A stretch of DNA of 63,274 nt, counting the filler, from Collodictyon triciliatum (lineage: Eukaryota): assembly GCA_043381765.1 (NCBI GenBank). It is 11 parts of 11 records of this genome, joined end to end, with 100 filler letters (N's around TTAATTAATTAA, not from the genome) between each part and the next. Parts side by side here need not be neighbours in the genome. Positions count along the whole stretch, not along the records: positions 55,570 to 61,811 come from JBHJMP010004619.1; 10 more parts are not named here. One strand, 5' to 3'. The translations under genes and the position numbers were made by a program. Below are positions 42,468 to 62,101 of this stretch, in pieces; position 1 is the stretch's first letter; every line of letters starts with the position of its first letter. The notes below the pieces were generated by a model. The model was not told the DNA's origin and did not search any database. It was given only the letters and a program-made list of their open reading frames with translations.

Positions 42468-44038
42468 CTTTACATATGTTTCAGAAATAAGTAGAAAAAA
42501 GAGTCAAATGTTATGCTATTTTAAATTTCTTTTCCGTCGAGAAGCGACGAGATTTTCGTAATACATCATAATGGCTTGTGTGAATATTCCCTTATTTTTT
42601 TATTTTACCAGCATGAAAGTTGTTTTATTTTATTTTATTTTGTTTTGTTTTTGTTTTTGTTTTTTGTTTTTTGTTTTTTGTTTTTTGTTTTTTGTATTTT
42701 GTTTTTTGTATTTTGTTTTTTGTATTTTGTTTTTTGTATTTTGTTTTTTGTATTTTGTTTTTTGTATTTTGTTTTTTGTATTTTGTTTTTTGTATTTTGT
42801 TTTNNNNNNNNNNNNNNNNNNNNNNNNNNNNNNNNNNNNNNNNNNNNTTAATTAATTAANNNNNNNNNNNNNNNNNNNNNNNNNNNNNNNNNNNNNNNNN
42901 NNNTTTTTATTATTTTTTTTTTTTTTTGTTGACATGAGAAATGGGCTGTCTGGGTCATGTTTGCTGTGGTGATGGTATTCTAAGTGTGGAGTGTGGATAT
43001 GTGAGTTTTTTTTTTCTTGTTATGCTCTTTTCTTCTATTTGCTCTTGGCCCAAAGGCTCTCTTTTGTCTTCCTGTCTTTGTGTCTCGATAGATCCAATAT
43101 CTCGGGAATCATACCATAATTGGATTTTATTTATATATGATTTACTCACACATGTTTACAATTATAAAGCAATTTTTTAATCACAATCCAAGAAAATATA
43201 AATTTATTTATTAGTGATTCTTATCATATTTAATATCTTTGTTCCTAATGTGGTCAATTTAAAATAATAGAAAAGGAAAGCATTTTTTTGTTTTGAAAAC
43301 CAAAAATAATATGTCAAAGCCGATACCAAAGATGATGCGTTGCCTACCATCAACGCGTCCCAACCTTCATCGAAGTAGAAGCAGCCGCCAAAACGCTCAT
43401 TTACATCTTACCCACACGCTCATTTTGTAGAAACAAAGCGCCTTCGCTTCCGTGTGCGCGATAACCGAGACAATCGAAAGAAAAACAATACGACCCGCAC
43501 ATTCCGCCAGAACAACTTTCACTGACATGCGCGGTTGTTCAGTCTGACTCGTTTCGCACGTTTGTTGTGGGTTGTGTGGGAACACTTTCGCCGCTTGAAT
43601 CAGTTCCGCAACCCAAGTCTGTCGCGAAATCCTCTTTCGATGCTCCGGGATACTCCCATTCTTCTCAGCGCCTGCAAAATCTCCTCCCAGATCATCTTTC
43701 TTTGATAGTTCTTTTTACCTTTCCTTTAATGTTGTACTCCCATACGAATATCTATATAATCATCAAAGAATCAATGATCCGAGCTTTCAGTCAGAAAATC
43801 GGCTGCCTGTTAAGGGTGCCGTATTGTTTCCCTCTATGATGCAAAATACCCTGCGAGTCCGAGAATCACGGCACAAGCACACGATCTCTAATGAAAGGGG
43901 ACCGTTTTTCAGTTGTTGGAGTCCTGTTATATATACACATGCCTTTGTCTGCCCTGTCTTCTTGCTACTGTATCTCAATCCTTTTTGAAACTTATGCTTG
44001 TATTCAGCATTTCCTCTATCCTAACCACCAGACGAAGC

Positions 44039-49082: not shown

Positions 49083-49227
49083 GTCAGTTCAAAAAAAAAA
49101 ACTTAAAATAAGACAAAGAACTAAAAANNNNNNNNNNNNNNNNNNNNNNNNNNNNNNNNNNNNNNNNNNNNTTAATTAATTAANNNNNNNNNNNNNNNNN
49201 NNNNNNNNNNNNNNNNNNNNNNNNNNN

Positions 49228-49263
<36 letters not shown>

Positions 49264-49316
49264 AAAAAAAAAGTTAAAGAGTAGGAGAGGATCGGGAGCA
49301 CCACCACCACTTCCTT

Positions 49317-52300
49317 ATGAGAACCGCAAATAAGGCCCTCCACTCCAAGGCACATCCCAAGTACCGAACTGACTCTTTGAGCTTCCCATCATCAAAGATC
49401 GAGGAAAAGATGAAGCAGGCCGCCCCTTTTGGAGCTGCACCTGTCGCCTCACCACGTGTAAAGGCCTCCGCCAAAGCAGATGCAGAGCCTCGCAGAGGTA
49501 ACGAAGTCCTCGCCCAGCCTGTATTCTCTCCACGAGACACCACACAACCACGCCCAATGCCGATTCGCAGAGGAATGACGCCTGAACGATCAACTGCTCC
49601 GTACTCGCAGTCAGTCAGCTCGCAGCAGACCCTCTCAAGCTCCCTTCCAACAGCCGCCGTACTGCAGACCCTTTCTTCTCACGCAAACAGACGACCCCAA
49701 TCACTCGATGTGAATCATGTCCAATCGCCTCGATTGGCGAGCCAAATCTCCCTACCATCGCCAAACAGTCACCAGACAGCCTACATACTCAGTGAAGGCG
49801 ATCCCAATCCGCTGTCTCATCAGAGTACTCAACCTCCAAACTTGAATCCGATGCAATCACCACGATATACAAATCACTTTCTACTTCCATCCCCAACTCA
49901 GAGACATACATCATTTGCCGAGGCATTGTCCATAGTTTCTCCTCAGCACCCACAAGCCAATCCACCATCAACCATTTTGCACTATGCACAATCACCTAAG
50001 CTTACATCCTATTTACCCATGGGACAAGGATATAATATTCCGTCAACTGGCATGGATGCATCTACCTCCTCAAAAGCTCGTGCAATTCCAACATCAAACC
50101 AAAATGGATTCACAAATTACAAGGAGCCTAATGTAGGAGTGAACATGAAAAAGAAAGAGTTTGAAGATAACTCTCAAAATGTACCAACTATATCTGGGAT
50201 GAAACAACCTTCATGGATGGAATATGCTAAGAGTAAAGAAACAAAAATTCCTTTTGATTACGATCAATCCAGCACTTTCCCAGGTACACCTCGTATTGAT
50301 TCGCGTCCCATTATGTCCCCAAGAAATGTAAAGAACACACCTCGCTCAAATCCAATACTTGGAGCACATGTGCAAAATACTCAGCAAATCGACATCCGTG
50401 AATATCCTACGAATCAAATAGTGCAGATAAATCCACCATCTTCCATGGGAATTCATATGCAGTATACGCATGATTCTAATACCATATCAAGGCTGCCTAG
50501 TGATACTTTCCAAATGAATAGACAAAGAACCCAATCTGATCTTTTTCGACTGCCTATTCAATTACTGGACCAACCGACAGTGGTACCAAAGCCTAAAGTT
50601 AGCTTGAACACTGCACCTGAACTGAGGCCTTCTCAGCCACCTCTCAAATCACAACAAAAGCCTCATGATGAAATGATATCTAAAGACACAAGAAGAGAAC
50701 ATAAAAGTCAGCTGGAACAACAAGGACCCCCTATTTATGAGTCTTCCACAGGTATGTTATTCAGAAAGAATCATCATAGAAAAGAATCAAGCACGTATAA
50801 TCCAGGAGCAACTGTTTGTGATTCTAGCGTAGACCTAGTTGACCAATTGAGTTCAACAATATATGTTTCATCCAGGCTAAGAAACTCTGAAGCTATCCAG
50901 GGTAAAAAACCAGAAGGAATACCTTGTGTGGATGCGTTCCAAAAAGATTTAGTTCTCTCTTCCAAAAGAATCGAAACGAAAGAAAAAACTAGTACCTCTT
51001 TCCTGAACCAAGAAAGCAGCCCCTACCCGTCTCTTGTTGGTCGGGGTATAGACGAGAGTATCCAATCAATATGCTCTCCAATAACTGACATCCCACAAGA
51101 TTTATCGTTCAATTACTCCCATTCAAGTGAAGACGAAGTGCAAGAGTATGTTCCGACACACTCAATAACCCCCGCCCCTCTTGGTCTACACGAACCTCAA
51201 AAGAAATCTGATGAACAAAATCACCGCATGCTACTCCAAAAAAAATATACTACTGCTCCATATGTATCGATTCTGCACCACCCAAACCAAATTCTAAAGG
51301 CACCTATGCCATCAGATGACAGGGAGCAAATGGGAAGACACTCCCAAAAAGAAAGCCAGCACAGCTCCATTCAATCAAAACAGAAAGATGTACCTGCACC
51401 CACTATTTCGACATCACATCCTTCCTCATCGTTGGCTTTTTCACCACTACTCGGAGTCCAAACAAAAAATGCAGAACATTTACCCAAGATGAGAACAAGC
51501 TCTCCCCATTATGGATTGGAAGAAGCGATGTTTGAGTTAAGAAAACAGATGAATTTAATATCCAGACCTCAGGAACGGCACGCTAGCTCAGATTTAATTG
51601 AGCACAATTTTGAAAAACTGGATGCTTCTGTTACTGAAAACAAAGTTCATCACTTGGACAATAAAACTGCATTTAACAGTGGTCAGGAAAGCTTGGAAAG
51701 TCATCCCATTCAAAGGTACAACTTTATTTTTTAGCAATATATTATTATTGTTATTATTATGATATTATATTTATTTATCTATCTATCTATCTATCTATCT
51801 ATAATTATATTGTGCCTAACAAAAGAAGATAATTACATTACATAGTAAAATTGGACTCAAGACAGAAAATACGGCTGCAATAAGTTGTGAATCGGAAAGT
51901 ATAGCAGAAAATAAAAGCCCATCTTATGTAGAGGAGGCAGATTCTATTTTGCAAAAATACACAGATATCGAACATACTGAGAAGAAGAAGAAAGGAAAAC
52001 CAAAAGAGAAAACTACCAGTAACACCAACGAGGACAAGCAATTAAAGAAGGAAAAAAAGGAGCTACGACGCTTAGAAAAGTACAAGAAGGAAAGGGAAGA
52101 ATTAATCAAGGCTTCCACCAAGATACAATTAGACAGGGAATCGATAATGCCCCAACAAAATTCTACCCGTTCAAGCTCTAAGGCGTCTTCCGAAACCACA
52201 AATATGAACGAAAGTGATACCACAACGTTGAGTCGAACTGCATCAGGTCTTGGACATTCGTCCAGTTCCTCCGTATCAGCTCACGATGTAAATTCTCAGG

Positions 52301-55469: not shown

Positions 55470-55680
55470 NNNNNNNNNNNNNNNNNNNNNNNNNNNNNNN
55501 NNNNNNNNNNNNNTTAATTAATTAANNNNNNNNNNNNNNNNNNNNNNNNNNNNNNNNNNNNNNNNNNNNTTATTATTATTTTATTATTATTTTATTATTA
55601 TTTTATTATTATTTTATTATTATTTTATTATTATTTTATTATTATTTTATTATTATTTTATTATTATAAAAAGAAACTCA

Positions 55681-58051
55681 CCGATCGATACAACTTCGGT
55701 GTTTGGCAAGATCTTTTGGGAATCCCTTTGGACCGGAGGGTCAGCGAAAGGCGAAGGTGTTGTCGGATAGATAGAACCAACAGAAGGACACGATGTGTTA
55801 TCCGGAGGTGTACTTTGAGTATTTCTGCTAGCCTCAGCTCGGTTCGAAAAAATCTCAAGTGACGGGACATTTCCGTGAGGGACTCCAGGAGATGTAGCTT
55901 TCTCCCAGGGTCTTGAGGTGATGGCGGTATGTGCATCTTCTACAGGACTTCCCACTTCATCATCAAGTAATCCCTCGTCGGTTAATCCGAGTGAATTAAC
56001 AACAGGAGTAAGCGCTTTCATCTTGGGATGCGATTCTTCTTTTATGGGGGTTCGCTCCGCTATGATATTACCAAATAAAAAAATTAAGAAAAAGAATTAC
56101 CCTTATTCTGAATGAACCAAGCACAAAATGTAATTATGAAAAATCATTTGAGAATAAATAAGTCAATTATTTTATTTCGTTTCATTTCATTTTTTTTTGG
56201 ATTCAAAGATTACTCAGCATTTCAAAAATCGTGCTTCAACAAACCTTCACCACTTAAGGCATAAGATGATCCAAAATCCGTTTCAGGTGTAGCTTTTCCA
56301 TTTCTTCCTGAAATTTTACTCCCGGGTGCTCCAGTGGGTATTGGACCAGGATTTTTGGAGCTGATAAACATTTACAAAATTAAGGATGGATGAATAATAG
56401 TATTCTGACTATGCATTTGCTTAAAAAAATCTACATTATACTTGTTTTCATGTGTCTTATATATAAATAATTACATCATGGCTGATGAGTTTTATTCGGT
56501 TAATGTTGATAATTCGATGTAACCATCTTCAAACGGGTAAAATAAAAAAAGGATGAAAATGAATAGTTGTGTTTTCTTTTTCTTACGATAAATTCTGATA
56601 AGCCGACGTCGGAGCTTTTTCCACTTAATGACCCATTTTATTGTTTTGAACAAGAGAAAAGAATTATATTGTTTAAGAACAGAAGAGTCAATATAGCCAT
56701 ATTTTGTTTCAAAATGTAAAGAAATGAGTCATTTTGGAGTCATGATATGAATAAAAGAATATGTTGTAATATTATTTTAAGAAAATGGTAGTAAATTACA
56801 ATGCCAAGATAAAAGCTCAGTAGGAACTGTTGATGTTGAGTCCAATTGATCAATATTATGGGAAATCATATGGTTATGATGGGCATTAGGTCTGTCAACG
56901 TCCCCACTAGGCCCGGACTCATTCGATTCCAATGACTTCAATATTATACTTTGGGCAAGTCCTAGGCGCCTAGCTTGGAACTTAGGGAGTAGATATGGGC
57001 TCTTCATCACAGTATTTTCATTTAAGGCGAGAAATTGTGATAATGAGATATTGTGTTCAAGTAAAATATTTGCGTAGTAGTCATGCCTATTTTTCCTGAG
57101 TATTTGTACAACTTCTGTGTTCGACATTGTGTCTTGTCGAATTGGGGAGTGGAAAGACTCAGGAAGACCAGATTCAATAGCAAAATGTCCTTTGAAGAAA
57201 ATTAGAACATCTTGGGCACTCGGTCTTTCATCTGAATTGTTAGACCACATTCTCCCTAAGTAGGATGCAATTTCCGTGGGAATAGATGCTGGAATACTAG
57301 GGCGAGTGCCCTTCATGATGTTATTGCGACATGTCGTCAAGCTGCCATCAGTAAATGGTTGTGTGGTTGTGAAGAGACTCCATATAAGAAGTGCAAAGGA
57401 ATAGACATCAGAGCACACTCCGGGATTGGAAAAATTCCCCTCCATGAACATATGGACCTCGGGTGATGCGTATCGCATGGCAACCATTTCACTTTCAGGA
57501 TCCTTCTTCAAGGATCGCTGCGATAAAGGCGCAATTCCAAAATCACAGATCTTGCACTCGCCGTTTGGTGTTAGAATGATGTTATGTGGATGCAACCTGC
57601 CGTGGTACATGTTTGGTCTCGATTTGCTTATGGCAAGGATTCCCTGTGCTATGGAATGAATGAATATTTTGGGTGTGAAATTCTCATACAACATGACTCC
57701 TCCTGTCGTGCACGTTTGCATGGCAGAGGCCATGCTTCTTCCACTTTCCATGGTACTGATATATAGTAATCCGCGTGAAGTCAGAGACCAACCGATGCAT
57801 GCGACAATACTGGGGTGTTGAAGTTGTTGTGATGCTCGCATCCACTCCTGTAGTTGTACACAGAACCCTGTATCGTTTTCAAATATGCTCCGTGGGATAG
57901 ATTTGACGATGCAGAGCAGGCTAGGCCCCATACGAGCCATGTAAGCACAATATAGGCTTCCATGCCCAAAGATTCTGTACATAGAGTTTGAGGTCTTTAT
58001 GAACTCTATTTGGCTGTCAACTACGTTGCTGGCCGCAATCACCCCATCCAT
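55681..58051 (-). CDS. TKL-like pseudokinase followed by a SAM-like domain, 3' truncated
   Basis: Kinase fold with CIVK, LQHPSIV, YHGRLHPHNI (no catalytic Asp), KICDFG, RYASPE, SDVYSF, ERPS. Then MSNTEVVQILRKNRHDYYANILLEHNISLSQFLAL (SAM-like) and further low-complexity exons. Confidence 0.8.
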
Positions 58052-58243
58052 CCTGGTTCTGCAGGCGTCGCTGTTCTCAATATGATTTATTTAATGTATG
58101 GGTCATGTGTTTAGGCTTTCTTTNNNNNNNNNNNNNNNNNNNNNNNNNNNNNNNNNNNNNNNNNNNNNNNNNNNNNNNNNNNNNNNNNNNNNNNNNNNNN
58201 NNNNNNNNNNNNNNNNNNNNNNNNNNNNNNNNCTTATCTCATT

Positions 58244-58273
58244 CCCGCTGCGAAGTACGGGTACTCTTGCTAG
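58244..58273 (+). mobile_element. Helitron-type 3' terminus (GC-rich hairpin + CTAG followed by T)
   Basis: CCCGcTGCgaaGTACGGG hairpin at 58244-58261, 8-nt spacer, CTAG at 58270-58273, then T. The rest of the element would lie in the adjacent gap. Confidence 0.55.
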
Positions 58274-58467
58274 TCACATATAAAAAAATTTTGTGTTTGC
58301 AACAACGCGCACATTTTGAGAGCCTCGATAGATGCTTAACTTAACATAAATTGATTTTATGCAGTTTTTTTTTAATTAAATTGATTAATTGACTGATTGA
58401 CTAAAGTTTTATTGGAATTGAAAACTAGGTAGTCTTCTAAAGGAAAAAGTAAAACAAAGACTTTCAC

Positions 58468-60339
58468 ATGAAGAAAAGGAACCGTCTTGAGTCTGAGAGT
58501 CTTAAGTCCGTAGAGCCAGACTACAGAAATGTGAAAGCATCTCTAAAGCCTATTTTAAAGAATGCGGATGACTATGACGAAATCAACGATACAGTTTTAT
58601 TGTGTCATAATTTGGTTACCGACACTTATCTGTTTGCAAGATGTTACATATTGAAATCACAACAACTCCCAACAATCGATCAAAAGTGTTTTTTTGTACG
58701 CTTTAAGGACAGTCGGAATAGTCTCACAAGATAGACTCGCAAGATTAAAAAAAAAAACCGTAAATGAGTGAAGACATGATGACTTTTTATCTCTATGATT
58801 TTCGATTCCTTTTGTCCCGAAAAGAACGCTTTCCATTGATTGGACTGTCTCATGTATAACCGTACTTGGCGAAGCAAATGTTAACAGCTTATCAATATAA
58901 CATTAAGGAACATTCTGTAAAGAGATTACCGCGCTTTATAAAGTAAACAGTTCCTAAAGATGAGAATATTACGGAAGCTGTTAAAAAGGCAGAGTTACGA
59001 AAGTTAAAAAAAGGCCATTTTCAAGAAACTCGAAATACCGGAACAATATAAAGAATGGGCTATAACGAATTTGCACCATATCATAACCAGCGATATTGTA
59101 AATGGTATCGAATATGACGTCAAAGTCAATCCAAATAAGTACATTCCATGTTTGATTTACATGAATCTCATTTTTGAGGATATTTGAACAAAACTGTTTC
59201 AGCCAATCTCTATAAAAACAAACGATATACCATTTCATATTACTCTAGATGCTGCATGTTTGATAGATTCGTTAGTATTATCTGGAAAAAATTATTACTG
59301 AAGAACATATCAAGATGCAAAGAGACCCTATGGGATGACTTCTTTGAAATGAAGAAGAGGGTCTTTCATCAAAGGGACTACAATTTTATATACATGATAC
59401 AAACAGACGGTTGGCGGTGTCATTATTATTGTTTGAAAAGAAAGGTATTTCAAATTCAAAATCCCAATTAATCAAAAGACCCAAGAATATGTTTATATTG
59501 ATGAACTTTCCGAAGAGCAGTTATCTTTATTAGCGACAAAAAAAAATAGTTAGATTGGACGCAGGCAAGTATAATTTGGTTTACATGGTGGATGAGACAG
59601 GTAAGAAATTACGTTGCACGGCACACCAAAGAAGACATGATAGAAATCTCTTAAAAATCACAAAATACTCTTTCGCGAGAAAAAGAAAGAAAAGTACAAT
59701 GCTTCAGGGATATGCATGGTAACAGATTTACAAAGTGCTGTTTCTTTTGTTCCCCTGACTTTTGAAGAGAATTATCAGTTTGAGACATTAAGAGTATCTT
59801 TAATCGATTAAGAGACATAACTGAGTAAACATAATTCATGCACCGTCGATTTTGAACAATTTCGAGAATATGTAACTATGAAATCAAGATACCAGATAGA
59901 ATTTTCCAGATTTTATGAACACGTACCTTTTCGAAAGATGAGATGGAAACAGTATGTTAATGCAAAAAGAAGTGAAGCATTGTTTATGGACAGCATCGAA
60001 AAGACATTTGGCAAGGATGTTGTACTGGCGTATGGAGACTGGAGCAGAAAATGTCTGCAGAAACATTTTATGCCAACAATTGGATGAGGATTACAAAAAA
60101 TACTACCCAAACGTTTTGAAACAGTTAGTGTAGGTGAATTTAGAACCTCCAAGGTGTGATGCAACTGCGAAAAAGAACTAGAATATATGACTGAAAGGAA
60201 ATACAAAAAAATTTATAGATGTCTCATGTGTAAAGAACACAATCGCTCAGAAAGCAAACAAACTGTATTCTTGGCAAGGGACTTTAACAGCGCTAATAAT
60301 ATACTCAAGAAAGTTCTTTCAATTCTTCAAAATATGTAG
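58468..60339 (+). pseudogene. Fanzor (eukaryotic TnpB-family RNA-guided RuvC endonuclease), decayed copy of about 620 codons
   Basis: Reading across frameshifts gives YLAKQMLTAYQYNIKEH, YDVKVNP...YMN, KLFQPI...IPFHITLD, MIQTDG, RuvC-I IVRLDAGKYNLVYMVD (D 59558-60), FRKMRWKQY, VVLAYGDWS, RuvC-II VGEFRTSKV (E 60136-38), Zn ribbon *CNC...CLMCKEH and RuvC-III RDFNSANNI (D 60280-82). At least 7 in-frame stops and several frameshifts. Confidence 0.88.
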
Positions 60340-60530
60340 GCTGTTGGGTCTTTCCAGGCAGCCTTCACCACTACACGACCTTTGTGAAAAAAGTGGTGAG
60401 ACGTTGGATACTAGCGCACCAGGTTTACCAATCTTTCGGTGATACACTCCTAGTTACACTAATAAACGAGAGAGGTGTACCGATAGGATGCATTATGGTA
60501 TGTTTGCTTTCGTGGCTGGGCGGTGTACAA
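60338..60530 (+). ncRNA. Candidate Fanzor omegaRNA scaffold
   Basis: Three consecutive stems begin at the ORF stop: 60338-60364, 60365-60399 and a long nested stem at about 60409-60527. Position matches TnpB/Fanzor guide RNAs. No expression evidence. Confidence 0.55.
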
Positions 60531-61086
60531 TTCTTTGATTTTTGCGTTCGCTCGCTACACAAGACAGACTGAGTTGCCGTTGCTTTACAGTCCAAGAGCA
60601 GAGCTATGTTCCTGCTGTAGTGTGTCTCCCACCTTTGGCATCAAATGAGGACGAGGAGGAGGAATAGGAGCAAGAGTTTATACTCCACTTGTTGAAATCA
60701 AATGGGATTGTCCTTGCAAACATACAAGAGACTGCTTTTCAAAAACATTCTTCTCCGTTCGATTATTTTCTTTCAAAAGAGACAAAGACAGACAGAAAAG
60801 GGGGAAAAGAGATGGATGGAGATAGAATTAAGTGAGTGGAAGTGAATAGAATCTGCAGAAGGGGTATCATTAAGCGATTAAAGATAGTGGGGTCGAGAAG
60901 ACGTGTAAATCAGAGGGTGTGATTTTGCGGATAACCTCGAATCATTAAACCCTCCAGAAATCGCCATCAATCAGCAGTTTTTCTCTTCATTTTCTTTTTC
61001 TTTTTTGATTTTTTTCAATCATGATTAATATCACTGTGATTATTATTTCGATTTTTTTTGTTTGATTTTGTTTCCTTCGACTGGAA

Positions 61087-61640
61087 TCATGAGAAGCTTA
61101 AGAGTTCCTCGTGGTGCTCGAGGTTGTCTTGGTCTACCCGCGCACCTCTTTGCCGATTTGTTCTGCGGCTCCTAAGCGCATCGACCCAGTCATGTGCCTG
61201 GTGCAGAAGCGCCTCTGATTGCTCACACAGATGATCAAACGTCCCGTTTGTGCCCAAGCAGTAAATGGCATATCCGCCAGCCATGCCTCCAACAGACATC
61301 AGTTTTGCAGGCCACGAGGCCAGCCATATCGCGCAGAAGGACAGGATGATGGGTGGGATGCTTAGCATCTGTTTGCGGATGTGTTATTGAATGGCCCAGT
61401 GATGTGATGCTTGGTCTCTTAGCAGGAATGAAAAAAGAAAAGGGAGCAAGCACGAGAGATAGAGAAAAATCGAGATGTGGACCCAGATAGTTTTATGAAA
61501 CTCACCGCTCCACCAACGAGGCCGCCGGGAACCACGTATGGTCTAGGCATATCGGGCTCTGATATCTTCAAGTAGAAATATGCGCTAAATTCAAGGATGA
61601 TTGACCACCCGTAGTAAATCATGTCCAGCTCAACAAGGGC
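61087..61640 (-). CDS. APC-superfamily amino acid/polyamine transporter, C-terminal fragment
   Basis: LEFSAYFYLKISEPDMPRPYVVPGGLVG followed by MLSIPPIILSFCAIWLASW, typical of the LAT/polyamine transporter C-terminus. Confidence 0.8.
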
Positions 61641-61734
61641 CTATGCGCAGGTATATCCGGCGTGAGTTTGCTCGTAATAAGTAATCAGTCCTTCAGGAAT
61701 CAATAGACATAGAGGCGATGGAAATGAAGGACAG

Positions 61735-61738
<4 letters not shown>

Positions 61739-61811
<73 letters not shown>
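61739..61811. repeat. (GA)n microsatellite at contig end
   Basis: Read directly. Confidence 0.95.
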
Positions 61812-62101
61812 NNNNNNNNNNNNNNNNNNNNNNNNNNNNNNNNNNNNNNNNNNNNTTAATTAATTAANNNNNNNNNNNNNNNNNNNNNNNNNNNNNNNNN
61901 NNNNNNNNNNNAAAAATAAACACAAAAATAAACACAAAAATAAACACAAAAATAAACACAAAAATAAACACAAAAATAAACACAAAAAAACACAAAAAAA
62001 AACGAGAATGAAAGAGAATGAAAGAGAATGAAAGAGAATGAAAGAGAATGAAAGAGAATGAAAGAGAATGAAAGAAAAGAAACAAAGGAAATTAAGACAA
62101 C

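What the first reader, a model, noticed from the sequence alone, without database searches (positions are those of the whole stretch)
58468..60339. Hidden Fanzor (eukaryotic TnpB/Cas12-related RNA-guided nuclease) fragmented across reading frames
Seen: the ORF track shows only three short pieces, but frame-hopping reconstructs one protein of about 620 aa without needing introns, in an otherwise intron-dense genome. It has TDG, RuvC-I D (LDAGK, where homologs have xDPGK), YGDWS, RuvC-II E (EFRTSK), a Zn ribbon and RuvC-III D (RDFNSANNI). All three catalytic acidic residues survive. In-frame stops lie at 58857, 58944, 59185, 59809, 59818, 60085 and 60157, with frameshifts mostly in A/T runs. Known: this motif order defines Fanzor/TnpB, transposon-encoded programmable DNA endonucleases of eukaryotes and giant viruses. 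Inference: length and motifs suggest Fanzor1. This copy is dead, but it implies a Fanzor family in this organism from which an active consensus might be rebuilt.
Basis: partly seen in the sequence, partly recalled or inferred. Interest (0 to 1): 0.88.

Follow-up and report, generated by a model that had tools for sequence, protein, structure and literature searches.

The report
Dead Fanzor1 nuclease gene relic

Summary
A frameshift-aware alignment to an intact 634-aa homolog (P0002) runs colinearly over window 58474-60409, with 257 of 600 aligned residues identical.

The window's own read-through C-terminal piece matches only Fanzor1 among its significant Protein Data Bank matches: PpFz1 3.1e-9, SpuFz1 4.7e-6, GtFz1 8.4e-4. 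A profile of 51 full-length homologs matches the same three at 2.5e-100 to 2.3e-81.

The RuvC D, E and D codons survive, but the invariant Pro of the DPG motif is Ala and the first zinc-ribbon Cys position is TGA.

Public runs hold hundreds of 80-99% similar contigs over about 58317-60474, so this is one copy of a roughly 2.1-kb multi-copy family.

The closest intact relatives sit in giant-virus contigs, inside 3.3-kb IS630/Tc1-mariner-like elements. A covariance model of their structured 3' ends gives its single best window match at 60330-60457, a candidate omegaRNA relic.

No transposase, inverted ends or second copy were found. Verdict: a real pseudogene of a known kind, of low interest.

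The parts
58468..60339 (+). It has 7 in-frame stops (58857, 58944, 59185, 59809, 59818, 60085, 60157) and 8 one-base frameshifts near 58687, 58763, 59013, 59294, 59413, 59475, 59533 and 59646, plus one near 60325.
   Evidence: PDB Fanzor1 matches.
59403..59411 (+). TDG motif. T318 is invariant; D319 and G320 are nearly invariant in 51 homologs.
59558..59566 (+). RuvC-I motif D-A-G. The catalytic Asp codon GAC (59558-59560) is kept. The invariant Pro (P373 of P0002) is replaced by Ala (GCA).
   Evidence: Matches the D of the family's invariant DPG motif; its equivalence to D383 of SpuFz1 (residue number from PMC10432273 passages) is inferred from that shared motif, not read off an alignment.
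60136..60138 (+). RuvC-II catalytic Glu codon (GAA) in EFRTSK. It aligns with the Glu of the DEYKTS motif in the SpuFz1 chain. The preceding Gly (60133-60135) is Asp in all laid family contigs.
   Evidence: (60134 G>A in all depth)
60157..60231 (+). Zinc-ribbon (TNB) region. TGA at 60157 occupies the position of the first Cys of the CxxC pair. Cys codons remain at 60160, 60166, 60220 and 60229.
   Evidence: (alignment to PpFz1). PF07282 is seen in the homologs but not in the window piece itself.
60280..60282 (+). RuvC-III catalytic Asp codon (GAC) in RDFNSANNI.
60325..60442 (+). Probable ancestral C-terminal tail in a shifted frame, open to the TGA at 60440-60442. It contains EKSGETLD, which aligns with EKVGQSVD of P0002.
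   Evidence: Inference; the similarity is low.
60330..60457 (+). Candidate omegaRNA-scaffold relic. Two hairpins (about 60338-60364 and 60365-60399) match the conserved structured 3' end of the giant-virus relatives.
   Evidence: Model R1 scores 17.4 bits with a rough E of 0.0032 over the whole window, both strands; the next best hit is 9.8 bits. The minimum-free-energy fold has z -2.2.
58317..60474 (.). Footprint of the multi-copy repeat family in public runs. The left limit is uncertain (depth is low but not zero back to 58234). The right limit lies between 60433 and 60474.
   Evidence: tables 2 and 7
58124..58232 (.). Run of 109 N (assembly gap or withheld stretch) 236 nt upstream of the ATG. 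It could hide the element's left end or a transposase.

Best explanation
Window 58468-60339(+), probably extending to about 60457, is a decayed single copy of a roughly 2.1-kb Fanzor1-bearing mobile element.

When intact, the gene encoded a protein of about 620-630 aa. This was a TnpB-like nuclease with REC/WED regions, a split RuvC domain and a zinc ribbon. Together with an omegaRNA transcribed from the element's 3' end, such a protein cuts double-stranded DNA next to a short target-adjacent motif. That activity is shown for SpuFz1, GtFz1 and PpFz1 and is only inferred here.

This copy can no longer make the protein. It carries 7 stop codons and about 9 one-base frameshifts, and it has lost several conserved residues. 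It is a neutral relic lying next to an open protein-kinase reading frame.

Shown here: homology, colinearity, the breaks, and the multi-copy family in public runs. Inferred: the past RNA-guided nuclease activity, the omegaRNA, and mobility.
For: 1. Colinear alignment to the intact homolog P0002 over residues 2-625, with 257 of 600 identical. tblastn gives E 3.6e-66.

2. The window's read-through piece P0001 (59821-60339, TGA read as X) gives 6 PDB hits at E 1 or less. The top three are all Fanzor1: 3.1e-9, 4.7e-6 and 8.4e-4.

3. The upstream piece 58764-59051 matches GtFz1 residues 510-581 (E 0.0019). Piece 59008-59301 matches GtFz1 629-690 only weakly (E 0.31). The C-terminal piece matches 900-1036. 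The order of the pieces is therefore colinear.

4. phmmer of P0001 against 1.84 billion representative proteins gave 1600 hits at E 1e-3 or less and 554 at 1e-10 or less. The best is 51% identical.

5. A profile of 51 full-length hits matches PpFz1, SpuFz1 and GtFz1 at 2.5e-100, 2.6e-98 and 2.3e-81.

6. The window keeps 7 of 8 invariant columns and 18 of 22 nearly invariant columns of that alignment, including the catalytic D, E and D.

7. In runs X1-X4, all laid contigs read a sense codon at two of the stops: 58858 A>T gives TTA, and 58944 T>C gives CAA. Most contigs carry an extra base at 59410 and 59643, and some at 59457, which is where the window needs +1 corrections.

8. Long frames are open under the standard code elsewhere in the window (818, 568, 541 and 437 aa). 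This argues against a variant genetic code.
Against: - Pfam found no relevant family in any of the 9 separate frame pieces, nor in P0001.
- No reads of the source organism were available. The best run holds only 0.09 of the sampled words, so the breaks were not checked against raw data of this genome.
- Five of the 9 frameshifts lie near homopolymers and could be sequencing errors.
- For 5 of the 7 stops, the read table did not list what relatives carry (only 40 of 817 differences were shown).
- No terminal inverted repeats were found: the best left-right alignment scored 18 against a shuffle mean of 17.9.
- No transposase relic was found.
- The omegaRNA match rests on a model built from 6 sequences with roughly calibrated E-values.
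Confidence: 0.93

Rival explanations
1. The relic is a fragment of an integrated giant-virus (Nucleocytoviricota) genome, and not a transposon that multiplied in the host genome.
For: The closest intact homologs lie on giant-virus contigs. L003 and L011 are the same 254-kb contig, named as a giant-virus MAG. L006 and L013 are a 173-kb contig. Their neighbouring genes include an mRNA-capping enzyme, a ribonucleotide reductase small chain and an SNF2-type helicase. The protein atlas assigns the nearest clusters 92-100% to viruses, most commonly Nucleocytoviricota.
Against: - Protein identity to those viral genes is only about 43%.
- The family footprint in the runs is only about 2.1 kb and stops at about 60474.
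- The flanks are host-like: a protein kinase frame at 56777-58090 and the same CpG ratio as the element.
- Hundreds of diverged contigs fit a dispersed repeat.
- No viral hallmark gene was seen in the 6.2-kb piece.
Confidence: 0.05
2. The gene is intact in the organism and only looks broken, because of assembly or sequencing errors, unrecognised short introns, a variant genetic code or programmed frameshifting.
For: Five of the 9 frameshifts are near homopolymer runs of 6 or more bases. The source is a fragmented draft: pieces of about 6.2 kb joined by spacers, with a 109-N gap.
Against: - Seven substitution-type stops are involved, of two kinds (4 TAA, 3 TGA).
- The stop at 58857 aligns with Leu and relatives read TTA there. 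The stop at 60157 aligns with a zinc-ligand Cys.
- Four frameshifts are not near homopolymers.
- Conserved residues are lost as well: Pro373 to Ala, Tyr391 to Cys, Asp to Gly at 60133-60135.
- Other long frames in the window are open under the standard code.
Confidence: 0.02

Closest known systems
Spu-1 elements / SpuFz1 of Spizellomyces punctatus (Bao & Jurka 2013, PMC3627910; Saito et al. 2023, PMC10432273; PDB 8gkh)
   Same: A locus of about 2.1 kb with a single Fanzor1 frame, no transposase inside, and a short structured RNA region between the end of the frame and the right end. It is multi-copy, with both full and partial copies: 42 loci, 19 of them full length (passages read). The catalytic D, E and D align, and the window's EFRTSK aligns with the DEYKTS of SpuFz1.
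   Different: The window's C-terminal piece matches SpuFz1 only at E 4.7e-6. No 30-nt inverted repeats were found here. This copy is dead.
Mariner/Tc1-type elements carrying Fanzor1 in large DNA viruses (e.g. PGv-1, described by Bao & Jurka 2013), and the giant-virus metagenome elements found here (L001-L006, L011-L014)
   Same: These are the closest intact protein relatives: 43% identity over the full length and 51% in the C-terminal 172 aa. They share the two-hairpin 3' RNA structure picked up by model R1.
   Different: The viral elements are 3.3 kb. They have 33-39-bp inverted ends and a divergently oriented DDE_3/HTH transposase. The window has neither, though a 109-N gap lies where a transposase would sit. 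That the elements found here are the same family as PGv-1 was not tested.
PpFz1 (Parasitella parasitica, PDB 9cf0) and GtFz1 (Guillardia theta, PDB 9cer); Xu et al. 2024 (PMC11423790, listing and start of abstract only)
   Same: PpFz1 is the best solved-structure match of the window's own piece (3.1e-9). GtFz1 also matches the N-terminal pieces in colinear order.
   Different: These are distant relatives, carry large insertions, and are experimentally active proteins.
Decayed CMe-1A Fanzor1 copies of Cyanidioschyzon merolae
   Same: Fanzor1 frames broken by ordinary stops and one-base indels, which those notes judged ordinary.
   Different: Another genome and another Fanzor1 family. Not examined here.

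Membership tests
Fanzor1 | Significant, colinear, near full-length sequence similarity to experimentally characterised Fanzor1 proteins, and not to Fanzor2, TnpB or Cas12 | tested here: met
   window piece against PpFz1, SpuFz1 and GtFz1 gives 3.1e-9, 4.7e-6 and 8.4e-4; the family profile gives 2.5e-100, 2.6e-98 and 2.3e-81, and no Fanzor2, TnpB or Cas12 chain reaches E 0.01. Searches show colinear N-terminal matches to GtFz1.
Fanzor1 | RuvC catalytic residues D...E...D. In Bao & Jurka's motif these are the D, the E before [TS][TS], and RD. SpuFz1 uses D383, E541 and D606. | tested here: met
   The codons are present at 59558-59560, 60136-60138 and 60280-60282. All three fall in invariant columns of 51 homologs. 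Residue numbers come from PMC10432273 passages.
Fanzor1 | C4 zinc ribbon (Pfam PF07282, OrfB_Zn_ribbon / Cas12f1-like TNB) between RuvC-II and RuvC-III | tested here: inconclusive
   PF07282 is not detected in the window piece. In the homologs, 7 of 8 list it at E 0.1 or less, but only 1 of 8 (P0008, 28.8 bits) passes the 26.3-bit cut-off. In the window, the first Cys position is TGA at 60157, and four Cys codons remain nearby.
Fanzor1 | Uninterrupted coding frame giving a functional protein | tested here: not met
   7 in-frame stops and about 9 frameshifts. It is therefore filed as a pseudogene of the family and not as a working member.
Fanzor1 | omegaRNA encoded at or overlapping the 3' end of the frame and running to the element's right end | tested here: inconclusive
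   Covariance model R1, built from 6 giant-virus relatives, matches 60330-60457(+) at 17.4 bits with a rough E of 0.0032. This is the best of 12 listed hits in 63 kb searched on both strands. No RNA holder was listed, so expression is unknown.
Fanzor1 | Residence in a transposon: inverted ends, target-site duplication, or an associated transposase | tested here: inconclusive
   No inverted ends above shuffle level and no DDE_3 relic. The family is multi-copy in public runs. The left flank is interrupted by 109 N.
Fanzor1 | RNA-guided, TAM-dependent double-stranded DNA cleavage | not testable with these tools
   This needs biochemistry. It is not expected for this broken copy.
Fanzor2 / IS607-type TnpB | Closer similarity to TnpB or Fanzor2 than to Fanzor1, and residence in an IS607-like element with a TnpA | tested here: not met
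   No Fanzor2 or TnpB chain appears at E 0.01 or less, or at E 1 or less. The length class of 620-650 aa fits Fanzor1.

The most novel reading that the evidence does not exclude
The relic marks a host-genome Fanzor1 family that shares recent ancestry with the mariner-borne Fanzor1 of freshwater giant viruses. On this reading, some of the hundreds of 80-99% similar copies seen in public runs are still intact and active. The two-hairpin 3' RNA, conserved between host relic and viral elements despite only 43% protein identity, would then be the omegaRNA scaffold of this clade. That would give a natural host-virus pair of RNA-guided nucleases to compare.
Probability: 0.3. Interest if true: 0.45.

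Novelty: new member of a known kind. Interest (0 to 1): 0.22.

Why it matters
Fanzors are compact eukaryotic RNA-guided nucleases of interest for genome editing and for understanding how TnpB-like genes spread between viruses and hosts. A single dead copy adds little by itself.

Published surveys already report thousands of Fanzors and many partial copies (passages of PMC10530073 and PMC10432273).

Its modest value is as a pointer in three ways:
- There is a multi-copy family in related samples.
- The nearest intact relatives sit in giant-virus mariner-like elements.
- The 3' RNA structure appears to be shared across that distance.

Tried and rejected
- **Pfam on separate frame pieces.** None of the 9 pieces matched a relevant family, and P0001 matched none. 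The pieces are too short or too diverged for PF07282.
- **Whole genome.** None is held for this window, so copies in the source assembly could not be counted.
- **Sequencing runs.** 8 runs were listed, none with more than 0.09 of the sampled words, and no RNA holder was listed. Nothing can be said about expression, and the source organism's reads were not available.
- **Inverted ends.** The left flank (58234-58470) against the reverse complement of the right flank (60330-60720) scored 18. The shuffle mean was 17.9, sd 2.1, maximum 26. The viral inverted end does not match either flank (scores 12-17).
- **Transposase relic.** tblastn of the two viral DDE_3 transposases against the window gave no hit better than E 1.6.
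- **Second copy.** All 154 family proteins hit only the 58300-60500 region at E 1e-3 or less. blastn of the element against the window found nothing beyond itself at E below 0.13.
- **RIP-like or methylation decay.** CpG observed/expected is 0.86 in the element against 0.83 and 0.88 in the flanks. In X1, 165 places have A or T in the window where the contigs read G or C, and 150 have the reverse. There is no directional bias.
- **Variant genetic code.** Rejected, as set out under the rivals.
- **Rfam.** The only hit was a sub-threshold snoR17 match at 61014-61103, 27.7 bits against a gathering score of 60.
- **Viral contigs searched with the window's own 88-aa piece.** 4 pattern matches, none confirmed.
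- **Possible 60-nt GT..AG intron at 59719-59778.** It lies inside the 35-residue insertion relative to P0002. Family contigs span this region without skipping it (table 8), so it stays unresolved and is not claimed.
- **Host identity.** The protein atlas on the neighbouring kinase returned clusters from arthropods, fungi, parabasalids and green algae, which is uninformative.
- **Earlier notes.** None exist for this genome or for this sequence.

Full report
**What is in the sequence.** Window 58468-60339 on the + strand begins with ATG and ends with TAG. The stop-to-stop frame list shows only short pieces there.

I aligned the best intact homolog, P0002 (634 aa), to window 58234-60700 with a frameshift-aware dynamic-programming script of my own. 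Residues 2-625 aligned colinearly to 58474-60409, with 257 of 600 aligned residues identical. The path crosses in-frame stops at 58857, 58944, 59185, 59809, 59818, 60085 and 60157.

The path also needs nine one-base frameshifts, near 58687, 58763, 59013, 59294, 59413, 59475, 59533, 59646 and 60325. Five of the nine lie within 6 nt of one of the seven homopolymer runs of six or more bases in the frame. There is one 35-residue insertion relative to P0002, at about 59695-59800.

**What it is.** Pfam saw nothing relevant in the nine separate frame pieces. From 59821 to 60339 the reading stays in one frame, broken only by two TGA codons. Read through with X, this gives P0001 (172 aa), which produced 6 Protein Data Bank hits at E 1 or less. 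The top three are all Fanzor1:
- Parasitella parasitica Fz1, 3.1e-9
- Spizellomyces punctatus Fz1, 4.7e-6
- Guillardia theta Fz1, 8.4e-4

An upstream piece, 58764-59051, matches GtFz1 chain residues 510-581 (E 0.0019). Piece 59008-59301 matches residues 629-690 only weakly (E 0.31). The C-terminal piece matches 900-1036. The order in the window therefore follows the order in the protein.

phmmer of P0001 against 1.84 billion representative proteins found 1600 hits at E 1e-3 or less and 554 at 1e-10 or less. Many of them are 600-700 aa long. A profile of 51 full-length hits (A1) matches the three Fanzor1 structures at 2.5e-100, 2.6e-98 (profile positions 7-595 of 619) and 2.3e-81. At E 0.01 or less it matches no Fanzor2, TnpB or Cas12 chain. 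hhalign of P0001 against A1 gives E 1.4e-46. The family is Fanzor1, and the window holds a member of it.

**State of the active site.** A1 has eight invariant columns: T318, D372, P373, Y456, G496, E530, S534 and D581 in P0002 numbering. The window keeps seven. P373 of the DPG motif is Ala (GCA, 59561-59563). It keeps 18 of the 22 nearly invariant columns.

The three catalytic codons are present:
- D at 59558-59560
- E at 60136-60138, aligned with the Glu of DEYKTS in the SpuFz1 chain
- D at 60280-60282

SpuFz1 coordinates its metals with D383, N385, E541 and D606 (passages of PMC10432273).

The TGA at 60157 sits where PpFz1 and P0002 have the first Cys of the zinc ribbon.

**Is it really broken?** No run holds more than 0.09 of the locus's sampled words, so the source organism's own reads could not be examined.

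Four runs (X1-X4, Logan contigs) were laid at 80% identity or more. They placed 372, 172, 336 and 126 contigs, covering 58317-60474 and nothing in 60475-60557. This shows a multi-copy family of about 2.1 kb.

At two stops, every laid contig reads a sense codon: 58858 A>T gives TTA (Leu), and 58944 T>C gives CAA (Gln). At 59410 and 59643 most of the depth carries one extra base, and at 59457 some does. These are the places where my alignment needs a base.

Other family-wide differences restore conserved residues:
- 60134 G>A turns Gly back to Asp, just before the catalytic Glu.
- 59616 G>A turns Cys back to Tyr391.

For the other five stops the table did not show what the relatives carry, because only 40 of 817 differences were listed.

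Even if all five homopolymer-adjacent frameshifts were sequencing errors, four frameshifts and seven stops would remain. A variant genetic code is unlikely, because frames of 818, 568, 541 and 437 aa are open under the standard code elsewhere in the window.

**Relatives and element type.** P0002 and its kin come from metagenomes. Ten loci were fetched from metagenome contigs and five from viral contigs. The long ones are giant-virus contigs. One is named as a giant-virus MAG (254 kb). Others of 173, 82, 67 and 57 kb are in the viral collection.

Genes near the Fanzor there include a trifunctional-type mRNA-capping enzyme, a ribonucleotide reductase small chain and an SNF2-type helicase. The protein atlas assigns the nearest clusters 92-100% to viruses, most commonly Nucleocytoviricota.

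In these contigs the Fanzor1 gene lies in a 3.3-kb element bounded by 33-39-bp inverted ends. A divergently oriented DDE_3 plus helix-turn-helix transposase, of the IS630/Tc1-mariner type, sits beside it. This matches what Bao & Jurka 2013 described for Fanzor1 in Mariner elements of large DNA viruses (passages of PMC3627910).

The window has no such transposase relic, no inverted ends above shuffle level and no second copy. A run of 109 N at 58124-58232 lies where a transposase would be. The roughly 2.1-kb, transposase-free footprint resembles the Spu-1 loci of S. punctatus. Those comprise 42 loci, 19 of them full length, with no transposase between the inverted repeats.

**Candidate omegaRNA.** In six viral relatives, the last 160 nt or so of the element fold into conserved hairpins. 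This stretch overlaps the end of the frame and runs into the inverted end. 12 of 54 predicted pairs show compensatory changes.

A covariance model of this region (R1, 163 positions, 47 pairs) was searched over the whole window on both strands without filters. Its single best match is 60330-60457(+), at 17.4 bits with a rough E of 0.0032. The next best hit scores 9.8 bits.

The matched hairpins are the same two that a plain fold of 60330-60440 predicts (z -2.2). In the shifted frame, the peptide encoded across the first hairpin bears no likeness to the viral peptide. The likeness there is therefore structural and not a by-product of coding.

This is the expected place and strand for a Fanzor omegaRNA. 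It is a model of six sequences with rough calibration and there are no expression data, so I rate it a candidate. The frame that is open to the TGA at 60440-60442 aligns weakly with the C-terminus of P0002. This suggests the ancestral gene ended about 15 nt before the element's end, as in the viral elements.

**How it worked and what it does now.** By homology to SpuFz1, GtFz1 and PpFz1, the intact protein was an omegaRNA-guided, TAM-dependent double-stranded DNA endonuclease carried by a mobile element. A role in transposon maintenance is proposed in the literature but is unproven in eukaryotes (passages). The copy in this window cannot make that protein and is best read as a neutral relic.

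**Context caveat.** The window is not one continuous stretch. It consists of eleven pieces, most of them 6,224-6,247 bp, joined by 100-nt spacers made of 44 N, TTAATTAATTAA and 44 N. Only 55570-61811 is physically linked to the relic. Statements about 'the window' beyond that piece concern other contigs of the same source.

**Novelty.** Fanzor1, its occurrence in giant viruses and many eukaryotes, its mariner association, its multi-copy families and its partial or degenerate copies are all in print (PMC3627910, PMC10432273 and PMC10530073; passages read). Jiang et al. report 3655 unique Fanzors from 22,497 assemblies. Earlier notes of this scan on another genome judged decayed Fanzor1 copies ordinary. 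I file this as a new member, a pseudogene, of a known kind, with low interest.

Noticed in passing
window 6248-6347, 12593-12692, 17426-17525, 23771-23870, 30115-30214, 36462-36561, 42804-42903, 49128-49227, 55470-55569, 61812-61911: Ten identical 100-nt spacers (44 N, TTAATTAATTAA, 44 N) cut the window into eleven pieces. Nine are 6,224-6,247 bp, one is 4,733 bp, and the last is 1,363 bp. GC per piece ranges from 0.30 to 0.48. The window is therefore a concatenation of separate contigs or samples, and genes in different pieces cannot be assumed to be neighbours.
   Followed up: yes
L003 2631-5952 (same contig as L011); also L001, L005, L006, L012-L014: Giant-virus metagenome contigs carry a 3.3-kb IS630/Tc1-mariner-like element. 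It has 33-39-bp inverted ends, a DDE_3/HTH transposase and an intact 634-aa Fanzor1. It is inserted next to different genes in different contigs. Its 3' end has conserved hairpins with compensatory changes, making it a candidate omegaRNA.
   Followed up: partly
window 56777-58090 (-): A single 437-aa open frame with a protein kinase domain (PK_Tyr_Ser-Thr 8.2e-24, Pkinase 4.3e-19) lies directly left of the 109-N gap before the Fanzor relic.
   Followed up: partly
window 49278-51734 (+) and 31197-32903 (+), in other pieces: Two very long open frames (818 and 568 aa), rich in Ser, Pro and Gln, have no Pfam family. They are probably disordered host proteins.
   Followed up: partly
window 61726-61811 and 61912-62088: There is a GA microsatellite at the end of the Fanzor-bearing piece. 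The next piece starts with a 12-nt tandem repeat (AAAAATAAACAC) and then a 10-nt tandem repeat (AAAGAGAATG).
   Followed up: no
protein P0003 (378 aa, metagenome): This Fanzor1 fragment is 52% identical to the window's C-terminal piece. Its source names it '6-pyruvoyl-tetrahydropterin synthase', which looks like a misannotation.
   Followed up: no
window 26416-27723 (+), in another piece: A 435-aa open frame with leucine-rich repeats (LRR_4 1.3e-15, LRR_8 8.3e-15).
   Followed up: no
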